Source of the DNA: Chloroflexota bacterium
GTDB lineage: Bacteria > Chloroflexota > UBA6077 > SHYK01
Reading direction: 5' to 3'
DNA: 64,000 nt
Assembly: GCA_009692845.1 (NCBI GenBank)
Contig: SHYK01000001.1
Coordinates: 438,359 to 502,358 of the forward strand
Shown here: one piece after another, positions 79 through 59,448 of the stretch
Numbering within the stretch: position 1 is the stretch's first letter
Layout: the number at the start of each line of letters is the position of its first letter
Translations under genes and position numbers: made by a program
The notes under the pieces: model-generated
Database searches by the model: none
Told to the model about the DNA's origin: nothing
Seen by the model: only the letters and a program-made list of their open reading frames with translations

Positions 79-618
79 TCAGATAGGCCGAATCCAGCCA
101 GGGGCCGCCGCGCGGCCGGCGACTCCGGGGATTCGGACCGGGGGGTAGCCGAACTCTTCTAGAGAGACGCCATCCTTGACCAGGGTTATGCCGTCTACTC
201 CATCCAGCCCGGTCAGCGTGTAAACGATGGACCAATACGCGAGCTCCGAGAAAGGACGCCCGCGTACGCGGGCGAGCTCAGGTCCGAACTCAACCGTGGC
301 GATCCGGTCCCGGACCTCGAAGGACACCACCTGCGTGCGCGGGCTGAGTGGGTACTCATAGTCCGCCGCGCGTTCGTCACCGTCTGGACCGTCGACGAGC
401 GCCTCGATTGCCGCCCGGGGTAGACCATTGGTGGGGACTTCGCGCTGGGCCGCCGACAACCCAAGCGACCCGTCAGCGAGGAGCCGAGGAAAGTAAAGCG
501 TGATCCGGGTGGTTGGCGCCCCAGCGGGAATCCCCACCAGCCGGCCAGTGGCAAACGGGGCCCCGTCCGGGTTTCGGGCTGGCGGGGAACCTTGCTGGCC
601 GATGAATCCGCAGCTCAA
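79..618 (-). CDS. GerMN-domain lipoprotein (GerM-like)
   Basis: ORF track 179 aa with a TTG start. The pattern ITLYFPR...AIEALVDGP...VVSFEVRDRIATVEF...SIVYTLTGLDGVDGITLVKDG is GerMN-like. In-frame codons 619-657 encode ILRALLTAFAFVA directly before L-S-C, which is a lipoprotein signal peptide. The true start is therefore probably upstream of 618 (see finding). Confidence 0.6.
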   Translation of the reverse strand: MSCGFIGQQGSPPARNPDGAPFATGRLVGIPAGAPTTRITLYFPRLLADGSLGLSAAQREVPTNGLPRAAIEALVDGPDGDERAADYEYPLSPRTQVVSFEVRDRIATVEFGPELARVRGRPFSELAYWSIVYTLTGLDGVDGITLVKDGVSLEEFGYPPVRIPGVAGRAAAPGWIRPI

Positions 619-704
619 TGCGACAAAAGCGAAGGCCGTGAGCAGGGCGCGAAGGATCAGCGCTCTCGTCGATGGTGCGTGGACCCACCGGAGTTGAGGG
701 GAGG

Positions 705-7807: not shown

Positions 7808-8653
7808 CTACGCGGGTGGGCGACTGCCTGAGCGCGTAGCGGCTCGACGGGCCGGAGTCGCGGGTGCAGCGGACGGAGTTGCCGCGGCGGGGGCGGCTGA
7901 AACGGCGGCCGGAGTCGCCGCTGGGGCGGCCGGAGTCGCCGGCGCGGACGCGGCTGATGCGGCGGCCGGAGTCGCCGGTGCGCGGGGGGCGGCTGATGCG
8001 GCGGCCGGAGTCGCCGTCGGAGCGGCCGTTGAAGGCCGGGCTACCGTCGACCGGGCGACTGGAGCCGTAGCTGGAGCCACCGAGGCGGCCACTGCAACTG
8101 GTGCGACCGGCCGAGGAGCGCCCTCAGGGACCGGCGGGGCTGCATCCTTCCCTTTGGAAAGGATCATGGTCATAGAGTTGCCTTCGAGTTGCGGCATCCG
8201 CTCAACCAGGACGCCGTCTTTGAGCTTGGCGACGACCTGTTCGAGGACCTGGCGGCCAATGTTGGGATGGGCCAACTCGCGTCCCCGGAACCTGATCGTT
8301 ACCTTGACCTTTTCGCCGTCCTCGATGAATCTCTCGATCGCCTTGGTCTTAAAATCGAGGTCGTGATCGTCCGTCTTGGGCCGGAAGCGCACTTCTTTCA
8401 GCAGGATGATCTTCTGGTTCTTTCGCGCTTCGCGGTCTTTCTTTTCCTGCTCGTACTTGAAACGGCCGTAGTCCAAGAGGCGGCATACGGGAGGGGCGGC
8501 GGTGGGTGCCACTTCGACGAGGTCAAGGCCCCGCTGGCGTGCGATGCCAATTGCATCGGCAGTATTGACGATTCCGAGCTGTTCCCCGTTCTCGCCGATC
8601 AGGCGGACCTGAGGAATTCGGATCCGTTCGTTAACTCTTAGCTCTCTGCTTAT
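7808..8653 (-). CDS. infC: translation initiation factor IF-3 with a 112-aa Ala/Pro-rich C-terminal extension
   Basis: The frame is ORF 7808..8668. The IF-3 core shows RVNERIRIPQVRLIGENGEQLGI, RLLDYGRFKYEQ and KEVRFRPKTDDHDLDFK. The TTG at 8668 lies inside the GGAGG motif (8665-8661), whereas in-frame ATA 8653 sits 7 nt after GGAGG. Atypical infC start codons are well established. Confidence 0.9.
   Translation of the reverse strand: MSRELRVNERIRIPQVRLIGENGEQLGIVNTADAIGIARQRGLDLVEVAPTAAPPVCRLLDYGRFKYEQEKKDREARKNQKIILLKEVRFRPKTDDHDLDFKTKAIERFIEDGEKVKVTIRFRGRELAHPNIGRQVLEQVVAKLKDGVLVERMPQLEGNSMTMILSKGKDAAPPVPEGAPRPVAPVAVAASVAPATAPVARSTVARPSTAAPTATPAAASAAPRAPATPAAASAASAPATPAAPAATPAAVSAAPAAATPSAAPATPARRAATRSGSRPPA
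7811..8146 (-). repeat. imperfect tandem GC-rich repeats encoding the PA-rich IF-3 tail
   Basis: Units such as GCGGCTGATGCGGCGGCCGGAGTCGCCGG recur on the plus strand. In the infC frame they translate to reiterated PATPAAASAA-type peptides. Confidence 0.7.
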
Positions 8654-40555: not shown

Positions 40556-41614
40556 TCAGGGCAGGCGGAGAATTTCGACCCAGTTCGGCCCCCGACCCAT
40601 GGCGTACCGGCCCAGTTCGTTCAAGCCGCCGGTTTCTTGATCAATAGCGTAAGCGGTTAGGTGGTCGGAACCCTGCCCGACGGCCAGCAGGTAGCGGCCG
40701 ATAGGGTCGATGTTGAAACCCCTGGGCGTCTTTTCCGTCGGGAAGCTATCGATCCGCTCCAGCCGTCCAGAATCGAGATCGATGCGGAACGCAGTCAGCG
40801 TACTCGTCGTTCGCTCGGATGCGTAGAGGAAGCGGCCGTCCGGCGTAACGTGAAGATCGGCCGCCTTGGGCCCGCCGTTGGTGCTCACACCGGGCATGCC
40901 AATCGGCGGTCCGCTGAAATCTGACGGAAGAGCCGGGATTGTCTGAAGCTCGCTCAGCGAGCCGTCTTCGGCGTCGTAACCAAAAACGTAGATGGACGCC
41001 TGGAGTTCGTTGAGGAGGTACACATGCCGGTTGTTGGGATGAAAGACGAAATGGCGGGGACCGGCGCCCTTCTCCACCTTCGTCGTCTCAGCCGAGCTGG
41101 TGTCAATCTTGCCGGTTACGTCATCGAAGCGCCAGCGTAGGAATACGTCGCCGCCGAGGCAAGGGACGAAAACGTGACGGTTGGCAGCGTCGATCTGGAT
41201 CGAGTGCGCGTTTGCGTCGGTGCGGATCACCTGGTGGGGCGGCTGGAGGACGCCCTGCGAACCGATCGGGCTGACACTGACGAGGCTGCCCTGGTATGAG
41301 GCGGCGAACAGCCAGCGCCCGGTGCGGTCAGTAATGATGTAGGGCGTGCTCTGGAGCAAAGGCGCGCTGGAAAGGTAGGTCAGCTCGCCGCTCAATTGGT
41401 CTACGGCGAAACAAGAGACCATGTCGGGTACGCGCTGCGCCGCGTAGAGAAAACGTCGATTGGGGCTGACCGCGAGCGGATTGAGCGCGCCCGAATGGCT
41501 CAGCCCGACGCGCTGTACCTCCGTGAGTGCGCCGCTCGCAGCGTCGAGGTCAAGGACGGTGATGTCCTTGCTGTCGGCGTTAGATACATATACGAACGTG
41601 CCTCCGATTGCTAT
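40556..41614 (-). CDS. YbhE/Pgl-type lactonase (7-bladed beta-propeller, 6-phosphogluconolactonase-like)
   Basis: The ORF track starts at ATG 41422 (288 aa). The same frame stays open for 64 more codons up to stop TAG 41617-41615. Those codons encode the expected first blade (TFVYVSNADSKDITVLDLD..SGALT...VSPNRRFLY). Downstream motifs GAGPRHFVFHP, LHVTPDGRFLY and PRGFNIDP fit the family. The start is probably ATA 41614 (see finding). Confidence 0.75.
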   Translation of the reverse strand: MAIGGTFVYVSNADSKDITVLDLDAASGALTEVQRVGLSHSGALNPLAVSPNRRFLYAAQRVPDMVSCFAVDQLSGELTYLSSAPLLQSTPYIITDRTGRWLFAASYQGSLVSVSPIGSQGVLQPPHQVIRTDANAHSIQIDAANRHVFVPCLGGDVFLRWRFDDVTGKIDTSSAETTKVEKGAGPRHFVFHPNNRHVYLLNELQASIYVFGYDAEDGSLSELQTIPALPSDFSGPPIGMPGVSTNGGPKAADLHVTPDGRFLYASERTTSTLTAFRIDLDSGRLERIDSFPTEKTPRGFNIDPIGRYLLAVGQGSDHLTAYAIDQETGGLNELGRYAMGRGPNWVEILRLP

Positions 41615-54700: not shown

Positions 54701-55740
54701 TCGGTCGTCCCCGCGTCATTGCTTGCGCTGGCCGGCCGCCACGAGAGAGTCGTTAGGTCGAACACCCGGTGATGGGTTGGGTTCCCGAAGACGTTCGGAA
54801 TGACAAAGGCCAGAGCAGCCTCGCGGGGCAGCGCATAACCACGAACCTGGTCGTAGGTGGTTCCCCCTACCCGATAGTTGGTGGCGCCGGCTTCCGTCAG
54901 GGGCACCAGTTGCACGGCAGCCAGCAGACCTCCGAGGAGGAAGCCGCCGCTCAAGGCCGCGACACTGATAGCGGTGTCGGCTAGCCGACGCGATCGCCGT
55001 AGGCATTGGATCAGGCGCGCGGACGCGTACAGCGCGGGCGCCGCGAGGTTGTAGAAGGCGATCTCGGGGTGGCCGCCGGTAAGCTGCAAGCCAGTTGCCA
55101 CGCTCAGGATCAGAAGTGTGAACAGAATCGCTCGGGCGCCCTTCCTCTGCTCCACCCCGATGATTGTTCGCTCGACGCCCCACAGGATCAGCGGGAGCCA
55201 TATCGCCGTGGCGATCATCTGGGGCCACATGGTGCTCACGGTCAGGAAGCCGCACAGCCCGAAGGAGACCGCGGCCAGCGTGCTGCCGACCCGGTTGGCG
55301 CCAATCTCACGCATGAAGAGATGCGTGAAGACCATGCCGAGCCATAGATGGAGTGCTATGAACCACACATACCACCGCGCTGGAGGAAGGAAGTTGAGCG
55401 CGATCGCCGGTGGGTAGAGGGCTTGATTCTGCCCGGTGGCCAGAAAGGCCTGGCCTCCAAAGATGTTGGGGTTCCACAAGGGGGGCTGCCCCGATGCCCA
55501 GCTCGCTTGAGCGAGGAGTCGCCAAGAGATGTTCTGGAGGATCGAATCCGACGACAGCATGTTGTTAGGACGAGTGAGGTCAAGCTCTTCAGCCGACTCC
55601 CGCCAGGGGCCGAAAGCCACCAGATTGTCGGTCGGCAGGAGAACTCGGTTGGTGAGCAGCACCGGGGAAAAGAACGCCAGCACGATGGCGACGTAGAGGA
55701 TTGGGATGGCGGCCCGGGAAGCCAGGGCCCGTCCTACCAC
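51727..55740 (-). CDS. fusion protein: YfhO-like GT-C glycosyltransferase (N-terminal ~865 aa) + MOP/Wzx-type polysaccharide flippase (C-terminal ~470 aa)
   Basis: A single 1337-aa ORF. The N-terminal part is multi-TM with an extracytoplasmic domain ending LVLFDVAFPGWTAYVDGNPQTILRADGLFRAIELGPGGHDVVFAYQP plus a final TM helix, the typical YfhO family ending. A cytoplasmic RYARRSTLARVVKN linker follows, then 12-14 TM helices with flippase-like segments (LGPTDVGRYTWAVLVIGYLDI, WYGAAYKF, NIAANLILIPRF). The GTG start overlaps the stop of the upstream GT2 gene by 7 nt. Confidence 0.8.
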   Translation of the reverse strand: MVGRALASRAAIPILYVAIVLAFFSPVLLTNRVLLPTDNLVAFGPWRESAEELDLTRPNNMLSSDSILQNISWRLLAQASWASGQPPLWNPNIFGGQAFLATGQNQALYPPAIALNFLPPARWYVWFIALHLWLGMVFTHLFMREIGANRVGSTLAAVSFGLCGFLTVSTMWPQMIATAIWLPLILWGVERTIIGVEQRKGARAILFTLLILSVATGLQLTGGHPEIAFYNLAAPALYASARLIQCLRRSRRLADTAISVAALSGGFLLGGLLAAVQLVPLTEAGATNYRVGGTTYDQVRGYALPREAALAFVIPNVFGNPTHHRVFDLTTLSWRPASASNDAGTTEWGKKNFVEGTAYIGIVALLLAVLAPWLSRAPQRWPLALIAVFALLIAFGTPLFGILYSLVPGYSQLRTPFRWIFPYSFAAAALAGLALTALSSAAPTRVRQIGLGVLGLGGIISGGLLLSMLDDPAIGVRGQVIGWAESAIRGSDRLTDAFLDGGSLFSYQWANVAIATILLLASGAGILLSARFRFGPSVLIAVSLVDLFAFGIGYGTAGDPKVLDYVPPSVRALRHDVASSGWAGPFRITAFDHDVLPANTGALFGLEDIRGYDSIIQQDYVRYASAIDADNVRASLAFNRIEALTDPKTLGSPLVDALGVRYVFTRDTLSDPQLALVYDGPTKVYRRSTALPRVLLVGSAIAAVSQEDAMAQVVTKAINPANVAALEGSVTEQAPRPAGTAQVTSYANEEVRIQASSSAGGYLVLFDVAFPGWTAYVDGNPQTILRADGLFRAIELGPGGHDVVFAYQPYSWRIALLLSGTGLLVIVILAAITSWQGIIARYARRSTLARVVKNAAVPMAAGGLNKVLDLGLAIVMLRVLGPTDVGRYTWAVLVIGYLDILANFGLGVLLTRDLARDAAATSRYLGSAAAARLTLSMVALVIAGVVAGPLGPLIELTPEMGLTLVLLAVGIAISNLSGLVTAVMNSRELMEYPAYVGNLTAVLKLVGGVSVLLLGFGIVGLAAVSIAVNTITAVALVVLLAEVVGWPGLSMEPRFSVKLVLTSYPLMLNNLLSTLFFRVDGLILRPIWGDTVLGWYGAAYKFIDGLNLIPSQFTLALFPIFSRLAGSSDRLIPTVELALKTLLSAAFPIAFGTTLLAEPIIRIVAGEAYIPHSVVALQVLIWFLPFSFVNSLLQYVLIAVNQQRFITWAFVLASAFNIAANLILIPRFAYVGAAAATIASELILLGPFWYAIQRYVGPVHLLALAWRPIVAGLAMGLVTWGLASWPLAGVIVLSAVAYGAVLFAIGGVGKQERAFLRGLFGRGQEEGALRSAAEILD

Positions 55741-56519
55741 CGAGATCGAATCTGCCAGACCCGCCAGGTGGCTTCAGTGATGATTTTCAGGGACATTTTG
55801 GAGGTTCCCCGCACCCGCTCCTCGAAGTAGATCGGGAGCTCAGCCACCTTAAGGCCGTACCGGTGACACGCCATCGCCACCTCGATTTGGAAAGCGTAGC
55901 CATCGGATCGAACTCGATGGAGCGGTAGCTTGCGCAGGGCGGCCGCTCGATAGGCCTTGAATCCGGCGGTTGGATCGTAGACCGGGAGGCCCGTGACCCA
56001 GCGCGCATACAGATTGGCGTACTTGCTGAGAAGGTAGCGCCAGAGTGGCCAGTTCTCATCGAGTTTCCCACCCGGCGCCCACCGCGAGCCGACGACCACG
56101 TCGTTCTCATTCAGCAGACGGAGCATCTGGGGCAGATATTCCGGCGAATGGGAAAAGTCCGCGTCCATTTCGAAGACGACGTCTGCGCCTCGCTCGAGAG
56201 CGAGGGAGAAGCCGGCGATGTACGCGGTGCCGAGGCCGAGCTTGCCGGCCCGGTGCAGGATGTGCAGTCTGCCCGGTCGCTCGCGCGCGATGCGCTCAGC
56301 CAGGTCCCCGGTGCCGTCCGGTGAGTTGTCGTCCACCACAAGGATCGATACCTGGATGTCTTCAGGAGCCCGGCTGGTTTCTGGCTCGGGGGACCCGGCC
56401 AGCTCTCGGAGGCTCACCGGACCCGTGGCGGGCCAATCCAGCTTGTCGAGCAGCGTGGTGACCATGATTTCCAGATTGTCTGCCTCGTTGTAGGTAGGCA
56501 TGACGATCCAGATGTTCAA
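55734..56519 (-). CDS. GT2 polyprenyl-phosphate sugar synthase (Dpm1/Ppm1-like)
   Basis: 261 aa. VMPTYNEADNL, ILVVDDNSPDGT, MDADFSH and YAFQIE are seen. A ~25-aa insert follows the first strand. No C-terminal TM helix is present. Confidence 0.88.
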   Translation of the reverse strand: MNIWIVMPTYNEADNLEIMVTTLLDKLDWPATGPVSLRELAGSPEPETSRAPEDIQVSILVVDDNSPDGTGDLAERIARERPGRLHILHRAGKLGLGTAYIAGFSLALERGADVVFEMDADFSHSPEYLPQMLRLLNENDVVVGSRWAPGGKLDENWPLWRYLLSKYANLYARWVTGLPVYDPTAGFKAYRAAALRKLPLHRVRSDGYAFQIEVAMACHRYGLKVAELPIYFEERVRGTSKMSLKIITEATWRVWQIRSRW

Positions 56520-56768
56520 TCGGCCCAGGTCCTAACTGATCCCTCCGGGGGAGACCGGAGGTGGATCTTGCTCGACTTCAGGAGCCTTTTCGAGCGGTTG
56601 GGCGAGTATAGCACTGGGAAAATGACCACTCGCCCGGCGGAGGTGATTTTCAGACTGCGCTGATTCCCGACTGATAGACACCAGGGCTGCCCGCTGGCGG
56701 GGGTGTAGATTGCACTACGGTATCATTTCGGCGCCTGCCAGGAAGGCTCCCGTCGAGAGGTAATTTCG

Positions 56769-57614
56769 ATCCGAGACGTCACTTCGAAGCCAGTTGTAAT
56801 CTGGGGCCCGTCCCAAGACTGGCTGCAATCCGCGCTCGGGCGCCCGGCCGAGATCTGGCACTATCGCGGGCTCCTGGCGAACCTGGTTCTGCGCGACGTA
56901 CGGCTCCGTTATCGGGGTACCGTGCTCGGAGTGATTTGGTGCCTCCTGAACCCCCTGGCTATGACTCTAATTTTTACGCTGCTCTTCACCGTCTTCATGC
57001 CAAACAAGGCGATATCGAACTTCCCAGTTTTTGCTCTGATCGGGGTGCTCGTGTGGAATTTCCATGCCAGCTCCATCGTGGGGGGCATCCAGAGTATCAC
57101 GGCCAACAGCGCCCTGCTCACCAAGACGCATTTTCCGCGCGAGCTGCTCCCGCTCTCGATGGTGCTGTCCAATGGCGTGAACTTCCTGTTCGCGATTCCG
57201 ATCCTGGTGGCGTTTCTGATGCTGTTCGGGATCGGCATTGGTTGGGGGCTGCTATTGCTCCCGATCGTGGTGCTGATTCAAATCGGCTTCCTGGCGGGCT
57301 TCGCCTTTATCTTTGCCACCGCCAACGTCTACTACCGGGACACTGGCATCATCATGGAATCCCTGCTGCTGGCTTGGTTCTTCCTGACGCCCGTTTTCTA
57401 CCAGCCCCAGGACTTGTTTCCTGAATGGCAGCGGTTGCTGTATATCGTGAACCCGGTGGCATCAGTCTTAGCGAGCTACCGAGACATCCTGTATTCCAAT
57501 GCCGCCCCAGAAGGACTCTTTTTGCTGCGAAGCGCCACCGAAGCGGGGGCCTTTCTCATCTTCGGGTGGCTCATCTTTCACCGTTTCGCGGATCGGTTTG
57601 TCGAAGAGCTATGA
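56769..57614 (+). CDS. ABC-2 type polysaccharide export permease (Wzm/TagG-like)
   Basis: The ORF track starts at GTG 56922, but that codon lies inside the conserved RD..LRYRGTVLGVIW motif. The frame is open back to 56709 with no ATG/GTG/TTG. GAGAGG (56755-56760) plus 8 nt plus ATC 56769 is the tentative start. Six TM helices follow. Confidence 0.8.
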   Translation: MRDVTSKPVVIWGPSQDWLQSALGRPAEIWHYRGLLANLVLRDVRLRYRGTVLGVIWCLLNPLAMTLIFTLLFTVFMPNKAISNFPVFALIGVLVWNFHASSIVGGIQSITANSALLTKTHFPRELLPLSMVLSNGVNFLFAIPILVAFLMLFGIGIGWGLLLLPIVVLIQIGFLAGFAFIFATANVYYRDTGIIMESLLLAWFFLTPVFYQPQDLFPEWQRLLYIVNPVASVLASYRDILYSNAAPEGLFLLRSATEAGAFLIFGWLIFHRFADRFVEEL

Positions 57615-58432
57615 CCGTCGCCTTGCCAGTCGCATTCGCTAGTCAGCCGCCTGCCGTCGTGGGGACGGTTACGAGTTTGCAGTTCGAAGCGGTCTCCAAG
57701 CGGTTCACCCTCGAGCACGCCCAGGCCCGCTCATTCCAGGAAGCGTGGATTCGCTTGATCCACCGGCGGCGGGACCCTTCGCGAGAGGATTTCTGGGCCC
57801 TCAACAACGTTTCATTTGAGGTGCACGCCGGGGAGATGCTCGGCGTGATCGGTCGGAATGGCTCGGGGAAGAGCACGTTGCTCCGGGTGGCGGCGCGGAC
57901 GGTACGGCCCACGACGGGGCGGGTCTTGATCAGAGGCCGCGTAACCCCGCTGCTGGAGCTGGGCGCGGGATTTCATCCGGAGTTGAGTGGCCGAGACAAT
58001 ATCTACCTCAATGGGTCGGTCCTCGGCCTCTCGCGAGCGGAAATTTCGGACCGATACGCCGATATCGTTGGGTTCGCGGAGCTCGAGCATTTCATCGATA
58101 CCCCGCTAAAGCACTATTCGAGTGGAATGTGGCTCCGATTGGGATTCGGCGTCGCGGTCTACACCGATGCCGACATATTGCTCATCGACGAAACCCTGGC
58201 GGTGGGTGATGCCCAGTTCCAGGCGAAATGCTTCGACCGCATTGCCGAGCTGCGGAATCGAGGAACGACGATCCTCCTGGTCAGCCACGATCTTGGACTG
58301 GTTTCCACCATGTGCGACCGTGCTTTGTGGCTCGAAAGCGGTTCGGTACGCGCGGCCGGTCAGGCTTCCACTGTGGTTGCTGAGTATCAGGACGGAGCCG
58401 AGCCCGCGCGAGTCGGTGAGCCCAGAACATGA
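57611..58432 (+). CDS. polysaccharide ABC exporter ATP-binding protein (Wzt/TagH-like, NBD only)
   Basis: The frame is ORF 57425..58432. ATG 57611 overlaps the wzm stop (ATGA). Walker A is GRNGSGKSTLL, the signature is YSSGMWLRL, and Walker B is ILLIDE. At 273 aa there is no C-terminal glycan-binding domain. Confidence 0.9.
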   Translation: MTVALPVAFASQPPAVVGTVTSLQFEAVSKRFTLEHAQARSFQEAWIRLIHRRRDPSREDFWALNNVSFEVHAGEMLGVIGRNGSGKSTLLRVAARTVRPTTGRVLIRGRVTPLLELGAGFHPELSGRDNIYLNGSVLGLSRAEISDRYADIVGFAELEHFIDTPLKHYSSGMWLRLGFGVAVYTDADILLIDETLAVGDAQFQAKCFDRIAELRNRGTTILLVSHDLGLVSTMCDRALWLESGSVRAAGQASTVVAEYQDGAEPARVGEPRT

Positions 58433-59448
58433 TTCGCGAGCCTGATTTGGTGGTTCAGGCAGAGAGCCGATTGGCTGGGATCGAAAGCCTCCGCCATGCT
58501 CCGGACGTTCCCCCAATGGATCTCGACAGCAGTCGACACGGGTGGCCGGGGCGGGTCGTCAAACGGTTGGTTGCCCGACTGTTGAGCTACCACAGCTTTT
58601 ATCAGCAGCGGGTGAACCTCGCCTTCGCCGCCTTTCAGCGGGAGCTTGAGCTGAGAAGTGATCGACAGGCTCTCGAGATTGCCACTGCTTTGGCTCAAAT
58701 CGATACGCTGTCAGCTGCGGGAGAAGGGCTCAGGCAACGGCTCGAGGAACTGTCGGCCCTGATCGCGGCGCGACCCTACATGGCGTATGACGCCTTCGGA
58801 ACGATCGGGGACCCATCCGACGTGATGGGCTATGGCCCAGAGGCAGGAAGAGCCCTCGAAGGGCAAGCTCGATTTGAAGAGCTGTTTCGGGGATCGGCCG
58901 AGTTTATCGCCGAACGGCAACGGATCTACGTCCCGTTCTTTACGAAATGCAGCAATGTGTTGGACGTAGGGGCCGGCCGAGGAGAATTTCTGCAGCTGTT
59001 GGAGCAGGCGGGTATTCCGGCCGTTGGGGTGGATCTGGACCCGGTCCTTTGCGAGCGGTGCCGGGAGCAAGGCCTGAATGTCCTGTGCGTTGATGCATTC
59101 GACTATCTCGCTAGCTCCGCAGATGAATCATTTGATGGAGTGTTCTGCGCGCAAGTCATCGAGCATTTCGAGAGCTCACGGCTGATCGAATTTCTCGGCC
59201 TGGTGCGCCAGAAGCTACGGCCCGGTGGTGTGCTGGTAGCCGAGACGGTGAATCCTGAGTCTTACGCTGCACTCAAGACTTTCCACGTCGACCTGACCCA
59301 TCAGCGCCCCATCTTTCCAGAGGTGCTCCTTTATCTATGCCATGAAGCTGGCTACCCAAGCGCGCGGGTCTTTTATCCTCAGGGAGGCGGGTTCGACCAG
59401 CGAAACTATGCGGGGTGTGGCGAGTATGCCGTCGTCGCCACCCGATGA
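58429..59448 (+). CDS. class I SAM-dependent methyltransferase with N-terminal coiled-coil-like region
   Basis: 339 aa. VLDVGAGRGEF is motif I, followed by FDGVFCAQVIEHF and GGVLVAET. The N-terminal ~150 aa are helical and heptad-like. The ATG overlaps the wzt stop (ATGA). Confidence 0.8.
   Translation: MIREPDLVVQAESRLAGIESLRHAPDVPPMDLDSSRHGWPGRVVKRLVARLLSYHSFYQQRVNLAFAAFQRELELRSDRQALEIATALAQIDTLSAAGEGLRQRLEELSALIAARPYMAYDAFGTIGDPSDVMGYGPEAGRALEGQARFEELFRGSAEFIAERQRIYVPFFTKCSNVLDVGAGRGEFLQLLEQAGIPAVGVDLDPVLCERCREQGLNVLCVDAFDYLASSADESFDGVFCAQVIEHFESSRLIEFLGLVRQKLRPGGVLVAETVNPESYAALKTFHVDLTHQRPIFPEVLLYLCHEAGYPSARVFYPQGGGFDQRNYAGCGEYAVVATR

What the first reader, a model, noticed from the sequence alone, without database searches (positions are those of the whole stretch)
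56709..56924. Wzm permease: conserved N-terminus upstream of the only canonical start; probable AUC (or CUG) initiation
The ORF-track start GTG 56922 falls inside the conserved ABC-2 permease motif (R-D-V-R-L-R-Y-R-G-T-V-L-G-V-I-W). The same frame is open back to TAG 56706-56708 and encodes ...AEIWHYRGLLANLVLRDVRLRYRGT, but it contains no ATG, GTG or TTG. GAGAGG at 56755-56760 is followed 8 nt later by ATC 56769. CTG 56823 is another candidate. This is the second gene in the window with this problem.
Basis: partly seen in the sequence, partly recalled or inferred. Interest (0 to 1): 0.45.

Follow-up and report, generated by a model that had tools for sequence, protein, structure and literature searches.

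The report
Wzm permease gene with AUC start
The polysaccharide-export permease gene of this uncultured Chloroflexota bacterium has no normal start codon in front of its essential first helix. It most likely starts at a weak AUC codon behind a ribosome-binding site, as do at least a dozen other genes of this genome, which is a known kind of exception that gene finders miss.

Summary
The wzm frame is open from TAG 56706-08 and has no ATG, GTG or TTG until GTG 56922. The 40 codons before that GTG (WGPS...EIWHYRGLLANLVLRDVRLRYRGT) are conserved, with a coding-type substitution pattern.

GTG 56922 would delete the N-terminal interface helix that solved Wzm structures have. The best start is ATC 56769:
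- It follows the SD GAGGT (56757-61) by 7 nt.
- It lies about 35 nt after a conserved -10-like box, TATCAT (56721-26).
- It aligns with the start of orthologues: ATC/ATA in L022, L025, L109 and L194; GTG/ATG/TTG in five others.

CTG 56823 is rejected because it would cut off the conserved WGPS motif.

The case is not isolated. A scan of this 1.88-Mb genome with Pfam checks gives at least 13 genes of the same kind: dnaJ, ftsA and plsX (ATC); gyrB, coaE, hflX and yaiI (CTG); infC and a lactonase gene (ATA). The ftsA start is ATC or ATT in all 7 genomes of the family and ATG or GTG in 23 genomes outside it.

This is a new member of a known kind (E. coli infC/pcnB, Deinococcus dnaA/rpsL). The scan has already noted the same thing in other Chloroflexota genomes.

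The parts
56721..56726 (+). -10-like promoter box TATCAT (inferred)
   Evidence: The same hexamer (TATCAT in 7 loci, TATGAT, TATACT in 2, TATCCT) lies 80-102 nt before the W codon of WGPS in 11 of 11 related loci. The rest of the spacer is not conserved. The box falls in three different phases of the wzm frame, so it is not coding. No -35 was found, and the sigma-70 scan found no full promoter.
56755..56761 (+). Shine-Dalgarno sequence GAGAGGT (core GAGGT 56757-61)
   Evidence: It is complementary to the 16S 3' end ...GGATCACCTCCTTTC found at C10:3523. It lies 7 nt (8 nt counted from GAGAGG) before ATC 56769. L022 has the same GAGAGG followed by 9 nt and ATC. L025 and L109 have GGAGG followed by 5-6 nt and ATC or ATA. 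The apparent 'E-V' amino-acid conservation upstream in P0003, P0011 and P0012 is this GAGGT read in frame.
56769..56771 (+). Proposed initiation codon AUC
   Evidence: It is the only near-cognate in-frame codon with an SD at a working distance. It aligns with GTG of G007 and L108, ATC of L022, L025 and L194, and ATA of L109. It lies 11 codons before W of WGPS, against 9-13 codons in relatives with canonical starts.
56769..57614 (+). wzm coding sequence as proposed (281 codons plus TGA)
   Evidence: Pfam PF01061, E=6.5e-14. PDB Wzm 6M96/6OIH, E about 8e-17. 59-74% identity to 14 metagenomic orthologues.
56802..56921 (+). Conserved N-terminal segment (WGPS...EIWHYRGLLANLVLRDVRLRYRGT), including the interface helix, all upstream of the first canonical start
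   Evidence: 22-30 of 40 residues are identical to each of 10 relatives. There are 10-18 synonymous codon changes per pair, and third-position differences are about twice first- or second-position differences. Aquifex Wzm begins only 4 residues before the LLANLV equivalent.
56922..56924 (+). GTG used by gene callers; an internal Val codon at the start of TM1
   Evidence: The public gene call P0002 (230 aa) starts here. It falls inside the motif R-Y-R-G-T-V-L-G.
57611..58432 (+). wzt ABC ATPase; its ATG overlaps the wzm stop (ATGA)
   Evidence: Pfam PF00005. The gene call in L130 gives 273 aa. The sequence is shown.
55734..56519 (-). Divergent GT2 glycosyltransferase gene, which bounds the intergenic region
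   Evidence: Pfam PF00535. P0003 and L021 have the same synteny.
7808..8653 (-). infC, another near-cognate start in the window (ATA 8653-51, 7 nt after GGAGG)
   Evidence: The orthologues in G002, G003, G004 and G006 start with ATC or ATA behind AGGAGG.
79..660 (-). GerMN lipoprotein gene; its signal peptide lies upstream of the first canonical start (CTG 660-658 or ATC 657-655 after GAGAG)
   Evidence: G006 has CTG after GAGGG plus 6 nt. G002, G003 and G004 have ATG or GTG.
40556..41614 (-). Lactonase (7-bladed propeller) gene with a probable ATA start (41614-12) 7 nt after GAGG
   Evidence: Pfam PF10282 covers residues 11-347 (profile positions 8-343 of 344), while the first canonical start is at codon 64.

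Best explanation
wzm encodes a full-length ABC-2 polysaccharide-export permease of about 281 residues. Its translation starts at the near-cognate codon AUC 56769. The inferred sequence of events is as follows. Transcription starts a few nucleotides after a -10 box, TATCAT (56721-26). This gives an unstructured leader of about 35 nt. The 30S subunit is positioned by the SD GAGGU (56757-61), and initiator tRNA pairs with AUC through two of three bases. Output is therefore low and should depend on IF3, as for infC. wzt follows through an ATGA stop/start overlap. The shown steps are the conserved coding N-terminus, the absence of any canonical start, the SD, and the orthologous near-cognate starts. 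The inferred steps are the promoter, the actual use of AUC, and the low, IF3-dependent output. The gene is one case of a habit of this Chloroflexota family, which is especially frequent in this reduced genome, of using AUC, AUA and CUG as start codons.
For: (1) There is no ATG, GTG or TTG in 71 codons.
(2) The 40 codons before GTG 56922 are under protein-level constraint and belong to the Pfam domain. Aquifex Wzm (6M96) starts 4 residues before LLANLV, so a GTG start would delete the interface helix.
(3) The SD GAGGT is 7 nt before ATC and matches the genome's own anti-SD. In this genome's ordinary genes, SD spacings peak at 5-10 nt.
(4) Orthologue starts align with this codon. L022 has GAGAGG, then 9 nt, then ATC, with an in-frame TGA two codons upstream. 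L194 has an SD followed by ATC, with an in-frame TGA two codons upstream (one codon, ACT, between). L025 has GGAGG, then 5 nt, then ATC. L109 has GGAGG, then 6 nt, then ATA. These four share the opening 'AUH GCN'. G007 and L108 have GTG, L106 has ATG, and L107 and L024 have TTG.
(5) The conserved TATCAT box lies upstream in 11 of 11 loci, in three different frame phases.
(6) Positive controls in the same genome: Pfam domains begin upstream of the first canonical start, with an SD plus a near-cognate codon at the right place, in dnaJ, ftsA and plsX (ATC), gyrB, coaE, yaiI, hflX, an MFS_3 gene and a MatE gene (CTG), and a lactonase gene (ATA). ftsA is ATC or ATT in 7 of 7 family genomes and ATG or GTG in 23 genomes outside the family.
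(7) An independent assembly is identical.
(8) The leader shows no stable structure (z=+0.75).
Against: There is no direct evidence of translation: no proteomics, ribosome profiling or reads. In E. coli, AUC gives only about 0.1-3% of AUG output (10.1101/063800). The 11 residues between AUC and WGPS are poorly conserved, so the exact codon rests on the SD spacing and the alignment. The promoter is inferred from a single conserved hexamer without a -35, and the sigma-70 scan found nothing. Genome-wide, SD motifs are not clearly enriched before ATC: the rate is 9-11% against a background of 7-8%, and only CTG stands out at about twofold. The genome-wide list was selected with an SD filter, so it cannot serve as an independent test of the SD rule.
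Confidence: 0.72

Rival explanations
1. Translation starts at a different non-canonical codon in the same frame: ATT 56763, ATC 56799, CTG 56823 or ATT 56709.
For: All four are in frame and near-cognate. CTG 56823 aligns with the TTG or ATG start of short, more distant homologues (L003, L008). ATT 56709 follows GGGGGTG (56699-705) and would explain the weak similarity to G007 further upstream.
Against: ATT 56763 is only 1-2 nt from the SD. ATC 56799 and CTG 56823 have no SD and would cut the clade-conserved P-x-V-V-W-G-P-S. ATT 56709 lies upstream of the conserved TATCAT box. That box sits in three different frame phases among the relatives, so the stretch is non-coding.
Confidence: 0.13
2. 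The start codon has been lost. The gene is silent, is decaying, or makes only a truncated protein from GTG 56922.
For: The genome is reduced: 1.88 Mb against 3.5-5.7 Mb in most of the family. Start codons in this wzm clade change often, and two relatives (L021, L023) have only ACG behind the SD. Public gene calls use the GTG.
Against: The frame is intact for 281 codons with a coding-type substitution pattern. An ATC or ATA start is kept in four separate orthologues. Essential genes of the same genome (gyrB, ftsA, dnaJ, plsX, coaE) have the same layout and cannot be pseudogenes. A GTG product would lack the interface helix, and no SD precedes the GTG.
Confidence: 0.08
3. A sequencing or assembly error, or a frameshift, hides a canonical start. 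One example is GTG 56703, which is directly followed by TAG.
For: GTG 56703-05 is in frame and separated from the open frame only by TAG. The genome is a MAG, and reads could not be inspected.
Against: Two assemblies agree over 3693 nt. The same lack of a canonical start recurs in independent metagenomic orthologues from other samples. GTG 56703 lies upstream of the conserved -10-like box. No other frame offers a conserved upstream ORF.
Confidence: 0.04
4. Translation starts by termination-reinitiation from a small upstream ORF: the +1 frame TTG 56710 to TAA 56761-63, which overlaps ATT 56763 (TAATT).
For: The 17-codon uORF exists, and its stop overlaps an in-frame ATT.
Against: TTG 56710 lies upstream of the inferred -10 box. 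No relative has an equivalent uORF. The layout is explained more simply by the SD plus AUC.
Confidence: 0.03

Closest known systems
E. coli infC and pcnB (AUU starts), the classic IF3-discriminated near-cognate initiation codons
   Same: A near-cognate AUH codon behind a good SD. Low output is expected, and it should depend on IF3. infC of this genome and its family also uses ATA or ATC. Hecht et al. (10.1101/063800) name infC and pcnB as the only confirmed E. coli cases, and give AUA/AUC/AUU/CUG at 0.1-3% of AUG.
   Different: Here the gene is a membrane permease with no known reason for autoregulation. The codon is AUC rather than AUU. The genome has at least 13 such genes rather than 2.
Deinococcus dnaA (ATC), rpsL (CTG), HPPK (CTG) and infC (ATA), proven by N-terminal proteomics (Baudet et al. 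2010, PMC2830850)
   Same: Conserved housekeeping genes have lineage-conserved ATC or CTG starts that gene finders mis-call. The argument is also the same: a conserved N-terminus plus alignment of the loci.
   Different: The Deinococcus cases have peptide evidence, and this one has none. The phylum is different, and the count per genome is higher here (at least 13 against 4).
Aquifex aeolicus Wzm-Wzt O-antigen ABC transporter (PDB 6M96, 6OIH, 7K2T)
   Same: The same ABC-2 permease fold by sequence (E about 8e-17 over residues 35-265). An N-terminal interface helix precedes TM1, and the permease is paired with an ABC ATPase.
   Different: The Chloroflexota clade has about 30 extra N-terminal residues (P-x-V-V-W-G-P-S...E-I-W-x-Y-R). 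The partner Wzt is short (273 aa), and no carbohydrate-binding domain was detected by Pfam.
TarG/TagG wall-teichoic-acid permease (PDB 6JBH)
   Same: The same ABC-2 family (E=3.8e-10).
   Different: It is a weaker match than Wzm. The substrate here is unknown.
Earlier findings of this scan in other Chloroflexota genomes (e1-1146839, e1-1155302, e1-1239201, e1-3044217 and others)
   Same: Conserved N-termini upstream of any canonical start, with ATC, CTG or ACG candidates that relatives share. One of these notes estimates about 1% of conserved genes.
   Different: Those findings concern other genes and genomes, and I did not re-test them.

Membership tests
ABC-2 type polysaccharide/teichoic-acid export permease (Wzm/TagG, Pfam PF01061) | Significant match to the ABC2_membrane profile above the gathering score | tested here: met
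   52.4 bits against a cut-off of 26.9; residues 59-262 of the open frame match profile positions 6-211 of 211.
ABC-2 type polysaccharide/teichoic-acid export permease (Wzm/TagG, Pfam PF01061) | Sequence homology to structurally solved Wzm or TarG, including the N-terminal interface helix before TM1 | tested here: met
   6M96/6OIH E about 8e-17 and 6JBH E=3.8e-10. The alignment starts at residue 4-5 of Aquifex Wzm, opposite LLANLV. The helix is encoded only if translation starts upstream of GTG 56922.
ABC-2 type polysaccharide/teichoic-acid export permease (Wzm/TagG, Pfam PF01061) | Adjacent, co-oriented ABC ATPase partner (Wzt/TagH) | tested here: met
   The PF00005 gene at 57611-58432 starts in an ATGA overlap with the wzm stop.
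ABC-2 type polysaccharide/teichoic-acid export permease (Wzm/TagG, Pfam PF01061) | Export of an undecaprenyl-linked glycan | not testable with these tools
   The context only suggests it: GT2, a YfhO-flippase fusion and a methyltransferase are neighbours.
Bacterial genes with a near-cognate (non-AUG/GUG/UUG) initiation codon | Conserved, selected coding sequence upstream of the first canonical start, with no canonical start back to the preceding in-frame stop | tested here: met
Bacterial genes with a near-cognate (non-AUG/GUG/UUG) initiation codon | Near-cognate codon (AUH or CUG) at a working distance from a Shine-Dalgarno sequence that matches the organism's anti-SD | tested here: met
   GAGGT, then 7 nt, then ATC. 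The anti-SD CACCUCC was found in the genome's own 16S 3' end.
Bacterial genes with a near-cognate (non-AUG/GUG/UUG) initiation codon | The codon aligns with the start codons of orthologues, and the near-cognate state recurs in them | tested here: met
   ATC in L022, L025 and L194, ATA in L109, and GTG, ATG or TTG in five others at the homologous site.
Bacterial genes with a near-cognate (non-AUG/GUG/UUG) initiation codon | The sequence is correct (no error or indel) | tested here: inconclusive
   A second assembly is identical, but it may rest on the same reads.
Bacterial genes with a near-cognate (non-AUG/GUG/UUG) initiation codon | Direct proof of initiation (N-terminal peptide, ribosome profiling or toeprint) | not testable with these tools
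   No expression data were accessible.

The most novel reading that the evidence does not exclude
The translation-initiation machinery of this Chloroflexota family, and above all of this 1.9-Mb member, discriminates less against near-cognate start codons than model bacteria do. As a result AUC, AUA and CUG serve as routine start codons for 1% or more of genes, including essential ones (gyrB, ftsA, dnaJ, plsX, coaE). A possible cause is its IF3, which carries a long Ala/Pro-rich C-terminal tail in every family member examined, or its initiator tRNA, which is not in the assembly. Under this reading the wzm AUC is one symptom of a lineage-wide shift in start-codon rules, not a gene-specific regulatory device.
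Probability: 0.3. Interest if true: 0.6.

Novelty: new member of a known kind. Interest (0 to 1): 0.38.

Why it matters
For annotation, every public call of this gene and of several orthologues is wrong. P0002, P0014, P0015 and P0016 are truncated into or at TM1, and P0011 is over-extended past its promoter. The same error affects gyrB, ftsA, dnaJ, plsX, coaE and others in this genome, because standard gene finders allow only ATG, GTG and TTG.

For biology, a family-fixed AUC start of ftsA, together with a cluster of lineage-specific changes from canonical to near-cognate starts in a reduced genome, gives a natural system for two questions. One is whether weak start codons are used to set low protein doses. 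The other is whether start-codon stringency itself drifts in some lineages. The single wzm case on its own is a modest curiosity.

Tried and rejected
- First metagenome-contig scan with the single protein: it found no relatives. I did not use the second scan that is allowed.
- P0003, the closest full-length relative: no DNA was available, so its ATH codon at the aligned Ile is only inferred.
- ATT 56709 and the 'GTG-TAG-ATT' reading: I considered these because similarity to G007 and P0003 seemed to extend upstream. I rejected them once that similarity resolved into an SD (GAGGT, read as E-V) and a -10-like box that sits in three frame phases.
- uORF reinitiation: rejected, because relatives have no equivalent uORF.
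- Sigma-70 promoter and terminator scan: it found nothing.
- Leader RNA structure: none.
- Genome-wide SD enrichment before AUH codons: weak or absent. Only the filtered, Pfam-checked list was informative.
- Initiator tRNA: the only tRNA(CAU) found is an elongator type (G1-C72, no GGG/CCC anticodon stem), and a pattern search found no initiator anticodon arm. Its features could therefore not be examined.
- Candidates from the scan that are not start-codon cases: L121 (a DsbA-like gene with TGA at the first Cys, so selenocysteine), L128 and L129 (the domain continues upstream), and L120 and L124 (a canonical start is adequate).
- Lactonase orthologues: none found in five relatives.

Full report
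**Observation.**
TAG lies at 56706-08 and the frame is open from 56709. GAGAGG at 56755-60 is followed after 8 nt by ATC 56769. CTG lies at 56823, and the first ATG/GTG/TTG of the frame is GTG 56922, which is codon 72. The frame runs to TGA 57612-14. Pfam ABC2_membrane matches from residue 59 of the open frame, 13 codons before the GTG. In this genome's coding sequence ATG, GTG and TTG together make up 6.2% of codons. A start-free run of at least 71 codons occurs in 1.0% of runs, and one of at least 51 codons in 3.4%. The run length alone is therefore only mildly unusual. What matters is what lies inside it.

**The missing part is real protein.**
Forty-one relatives from the same class were searched. 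The 5.8-billion-protein search found 933 homologues. All well-aligned homologues begin at least 10 residues before the helix E-L-W-x-Y-R-x-L-L-x-N-L-V-x-R-D-x-K-x-R-Y. For the 40 codons 56802-56921, ten close relatives share 22-30 identical residues. Each pair shows 10-18 synonymous codon changes, and third-position differences are about twice first- or second-position differences. That is the signature of a translated, selected sequence. Against solved structures, Aquifex aeolicus Wzm (6M96, 6OIH) aligns from its own residue 4-5 to our L-L-A-N-L-V. The stretch before GTG 56922 is therefore the N-terminal interface helix, and the GTG sits at the first residues of TM1. A permease starting at the GTG would lack a structural element that every solved member has.

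**Where translation starts.**
The closest clade (59-74% identity; P0003-P0016) is known mostly from metagenomic contigs. I fetched the DNA of eleven of these loci. Anchored on the W codon of the conserved W-G-P-S motif, they share one layout:
- A hexamer (TATCAT in 7 loci; TATGAT, TATACT or TATCCT in the others) lies 80-102 nt upstream.
- An SD-like GAGG, GGAGG or GAGAGG lies 45-55 nt upstream.
- After 4-10 nt comes the codon that opens the protein.

That codon differs among the loci:

| Locus | SD and spacer | Opening codon |
|---|---|---|
| This window | GAGGT, then 7 nt | ATC |
| L022 | GAGAGG, then 9 nt | ATC |
| L025 | GGAGG, then 5 nt | ATC |
| L194 | SD-like GGGGTGA, then 3 nt (ACT) | ATC |
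| L109 | GGAGG, then 6 nt | ATA |
| L108, G007 | L108: GAGG, then 9 nt; G007: no clear SD | GTG |
| L106 | GGAG, then 4 nt | ATG |
| L107, L024 | none | TTG |
| L021, L023 | GAGG, then 9-10 nt | only ACG available |

In L022 and L194 an in-frame TGA lies two codons before the ATC, so nothing upstream can be translated into the protein. The four AUH loci L022, L025, L109 and L194 share the opening 'AUH GCN' (I-A).

The TATCAT box occupies three different phases of the wzm frame among the loci, so it is a DNA signal rather than protein. I read it as a -10 element. This is an inference: no -35 is visible, and the simple sigma-70 scan found nothing. The apparent amino-acid conservation 'E-V' further upstream in P0003, P0011 and P0012 is simply the SD GAGGT read in frame.

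The genome's own 16S 3' end is ...GGAUCACCUCCUUUC, so GAGGU is a five-base SD. Ordinary genes of this genome place GGAG or GAGG 5-10 nt before the start. The other candidates fail:
- ATT 56763 is too close to the SD.
- ATC 56799 and CTG 56823 have no SD and would remove the conserved P-x-V-V-W-G-P-S.
- ATT 56709 and the in-frame GTG 56703 (followed directly by TAG) lie upstream of the box.

The inferred 35-nt leader has no stable fold (z=+0.75). ATC 56769 is therefore the best-supported start.

**Is the sequence right?**
A Logan assembly of run SRR8561391 carries the same gene on a 22.4-kb contig and is identical to the window over 3693 nt. It may derive from the same reads. The recurrence of the same situation in independent samples argues more strongly against an artefact.

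**It is a habit of the genome.**
The window lies in a 1.88-Mb, 10-contig, 89%-complete Chloroflexota MAG. I built a crude gene set of 1643 ORFs and a dicodon coding model. I then listed in-frame ATC, ATT, ATA, CTG or ACG codons that meet three conditions: they lie 4-10 nt behind an SD, they sit at least 9 codons upstream of the first canonical start, and the stretch between looks coding. Pfam scans of the 20 best candidates show conserved domains beginning upstream of the first canonical start in ten genes:

| Gene | Proposed start | Evidence |
|---|---|---|
| dnaJ | ATC | J domain at residues 5-67 = profile 1-63; first canonical start at codon 55 |
| gyrB | CTG | First canonical start is the M of P-G-M-Y-I-G |
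| ftsA | ATC | First canonical start at codon 41 |
| coaE | CTG | Pfam residues 6-181 = profile 2-178 |
| plsX | ATC | Pfam residues 5-324 = profile 2-321 |
| yaiI (DUF188) | CTG | Domain begins upstream of the first canonical start |
| hflX | CTG | Domain begins upstream of the first canonical start |
| MFS_3 transporter gene | CTG | Domain begins upstream of the first canonical start |
| MatE transporter gene | CTG | Domain begins upstream of the first canonical start |
| Lactonase gene | ATA | Inside this window at 40556-41614 |

With wzm, the GerMN lipoprotein gene and infC (ATA), that makes at least 13 genes, about 0.8% of ORFs. The filter can only see a fraction of such cases. It was also selected on the presence of an SD, so it does not test the SD rule independently. 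Unfiltered SD enrichment before ATC is weak. Other candidates had other explanations; for example, a DsbA-like gene has TGA (selenocysteine) at the first Cys of its motif.

**Comparison with relatives.**
- ftsA starts with ATC in six and ATT in one of the seven genomes of the family, each behind a strong SD. In 23 genomes of other families of the same order and class, the homologous codon is ATG (20) or GTG (3). This is a fixed, family-wide AUC start of an essential gene, and it serves as a positive control for AUC initiation in this lineage.
- infC is ATA or ATC throughout the family.
- The hflX CTG is shared with G007, and the yaiI CTG with G002.
- The GerMN gene of G006 also has only CTG.
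- For gyrB, dnaJ, plsX and coaE, every relative examined has a canonical codon at or next to the site. Those changes are therefore specific to this genome, as is the wzm ATC relative to G007's GTG.

**Mechanism.**
The following are shown:
- an intact, selected ORF whose conserved N-terminus has no canonical start;
- an SD at a working distance from AUC;
- orthologous AUH starts;
- many parallel cases in the same genome.

The following are inferred:
- fMet-tRNA initiates on AUC with a third-base mismatch;
- output is low, given 0.1-3% of AUG in E. coli (10.1101/063800);
- output is sensitive to IF3, which rejects such codons (PMC9723500, PMC10158994) and whose own gene here uses ATA;
- wzt is read through the ATGA overlap.

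I cannot decide whether the weak codon is selected for low dosage or merely tolerated in a reduced genome. The frequent switching of the wzm start among ATG, GTG, TTG, ATC, ATA and possibly ACG in the clade suggests weak constraint on initiation strength for this gene. The fixed ftsA ATC suggests selection there.

**Comparison with the known.**
Near-cognate starts are established for E. coli infC and pcnB. They were proven by N-terminal proteomics for Deinococcus dnaA (ATC), rpsL (CTG) and infC (ATA) (PMC2830850). Earlier findings of this scan report the same thing in at least eight other Chloroflexota genomes, and I did not re-test those. The wzm case is therefore a new member of a known kind. 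The higher-than-usual count per genome and the family-fixed ftsA AUC are the more interesting by-products.

**Verdict.**
Confidence in AUC 56769 as the start is about 0.7, and interest is modest.

Noticed in passing
G000 C3:93100-94317 (L112, L169) and relatives L136-L140, L170-L193: The ftsA start codon is ATC (6 genomes) or ATT (1 genome) behind a strong SD in all seven genomes of the family. The homologous codon is ATG (20) or GTG (3) in 23 genomes of other families of the same order and class. This is a clean, family-level fixed near-cognate start of an essential division gene.
   Followed up: yes
G000 loci L110 (dnaJ), L111 (gyrB), L113 (coaE), L114 (plsX), L115 (yaiI), L118 (MFS_3), L119 (hflX), L127 (MatE): Conserved Pfam domains begin upstream of the first canonical start, and an SD plus ATC or CTG sits at the expected N-terminus. 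For gyrB, dnaJ, plsX and coaE, every relative examined has ATG, GTG or TTG there, so these changes are specific to this genome.
   Followed up: yes
window 40556-41614 (-): A lactonase (7-bladed propeller, PF10282) gene whose domain starts 53 codons before the first canonical start. ATA 41614-12 lies 7 nt after GAGG and directly after a TAG. No orthologue was found in five relatives.
   Followed up: partly
window 7808-8653 (-) and L156-L159: IF3 carries an Ala/Pro-rich C-terminal extension of about 110 residues (281 aa in total). Family relatives have similar tails (209-291 aa). All start with ATA or ATC. A link to start-codon stringency is speculation only.
   Followed up: partly
L021:1421-1437 and L023:168-183: In two wzm orthologues, the only near-cognate codon at the SD-defined start site is ACG (GAGG, then 9-10 nt, then ACG). 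L023 has no canonical start for 109 codons. L021 has an ATG only after the WGPS motif. These are possible ACG starts or decaying starts.
   Followed up: partly
window 56703-56711: GTG-TAG-ATT: an in-frame GTG is followed at once by a stop, and then by the ATT that opens the wzm frame, just after GGGGG. It lies upstream of the inferred -10 box, so it is probably meaningless.
   Followed up: partly
G000 C2:147139-147744 (L121) and about 40 nt upstream: A DsbA-like gene with a proper ATG and SD reads M-A-T-K-L-I-V-Y-G-D-F-I-TGA-P-F-C. TGA replaces the first Cys of the C-P-F-C motif, so it is a probable selenoprotein. tRNA-Sec is present at C3:222836-222933.
   Followed up: partly
G000 tRNA set: tRNA-Ile(UAU) is at C3:109508-109581. 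The only tRNA(CAU) found (C9:107910-107985) is an elongator type, and no initiator tRNA is in the assembly. ARAGORN also calls an odd 97-nt 'tRNA' with a 4-base anticodon (gggt) at C9:10026-10122, probably a false positive.
   Followed up: partly
window 57611-59448: Wzt is short (273 aa) with no carbohydrate-binding domain detected. The next gene, whose start overlaps, is a 339-aa SAM methyltransferase. That is reminiscent of chain-terminating modification systems, but the usual reader domain is missing.
   Followed up: no
L194:860-905: A direct repeat, TAGAAATTGCCCG x2, lies in the wzm upstream region of relative P0013, where the other loci have the TATCAT box.
   Followed up: no
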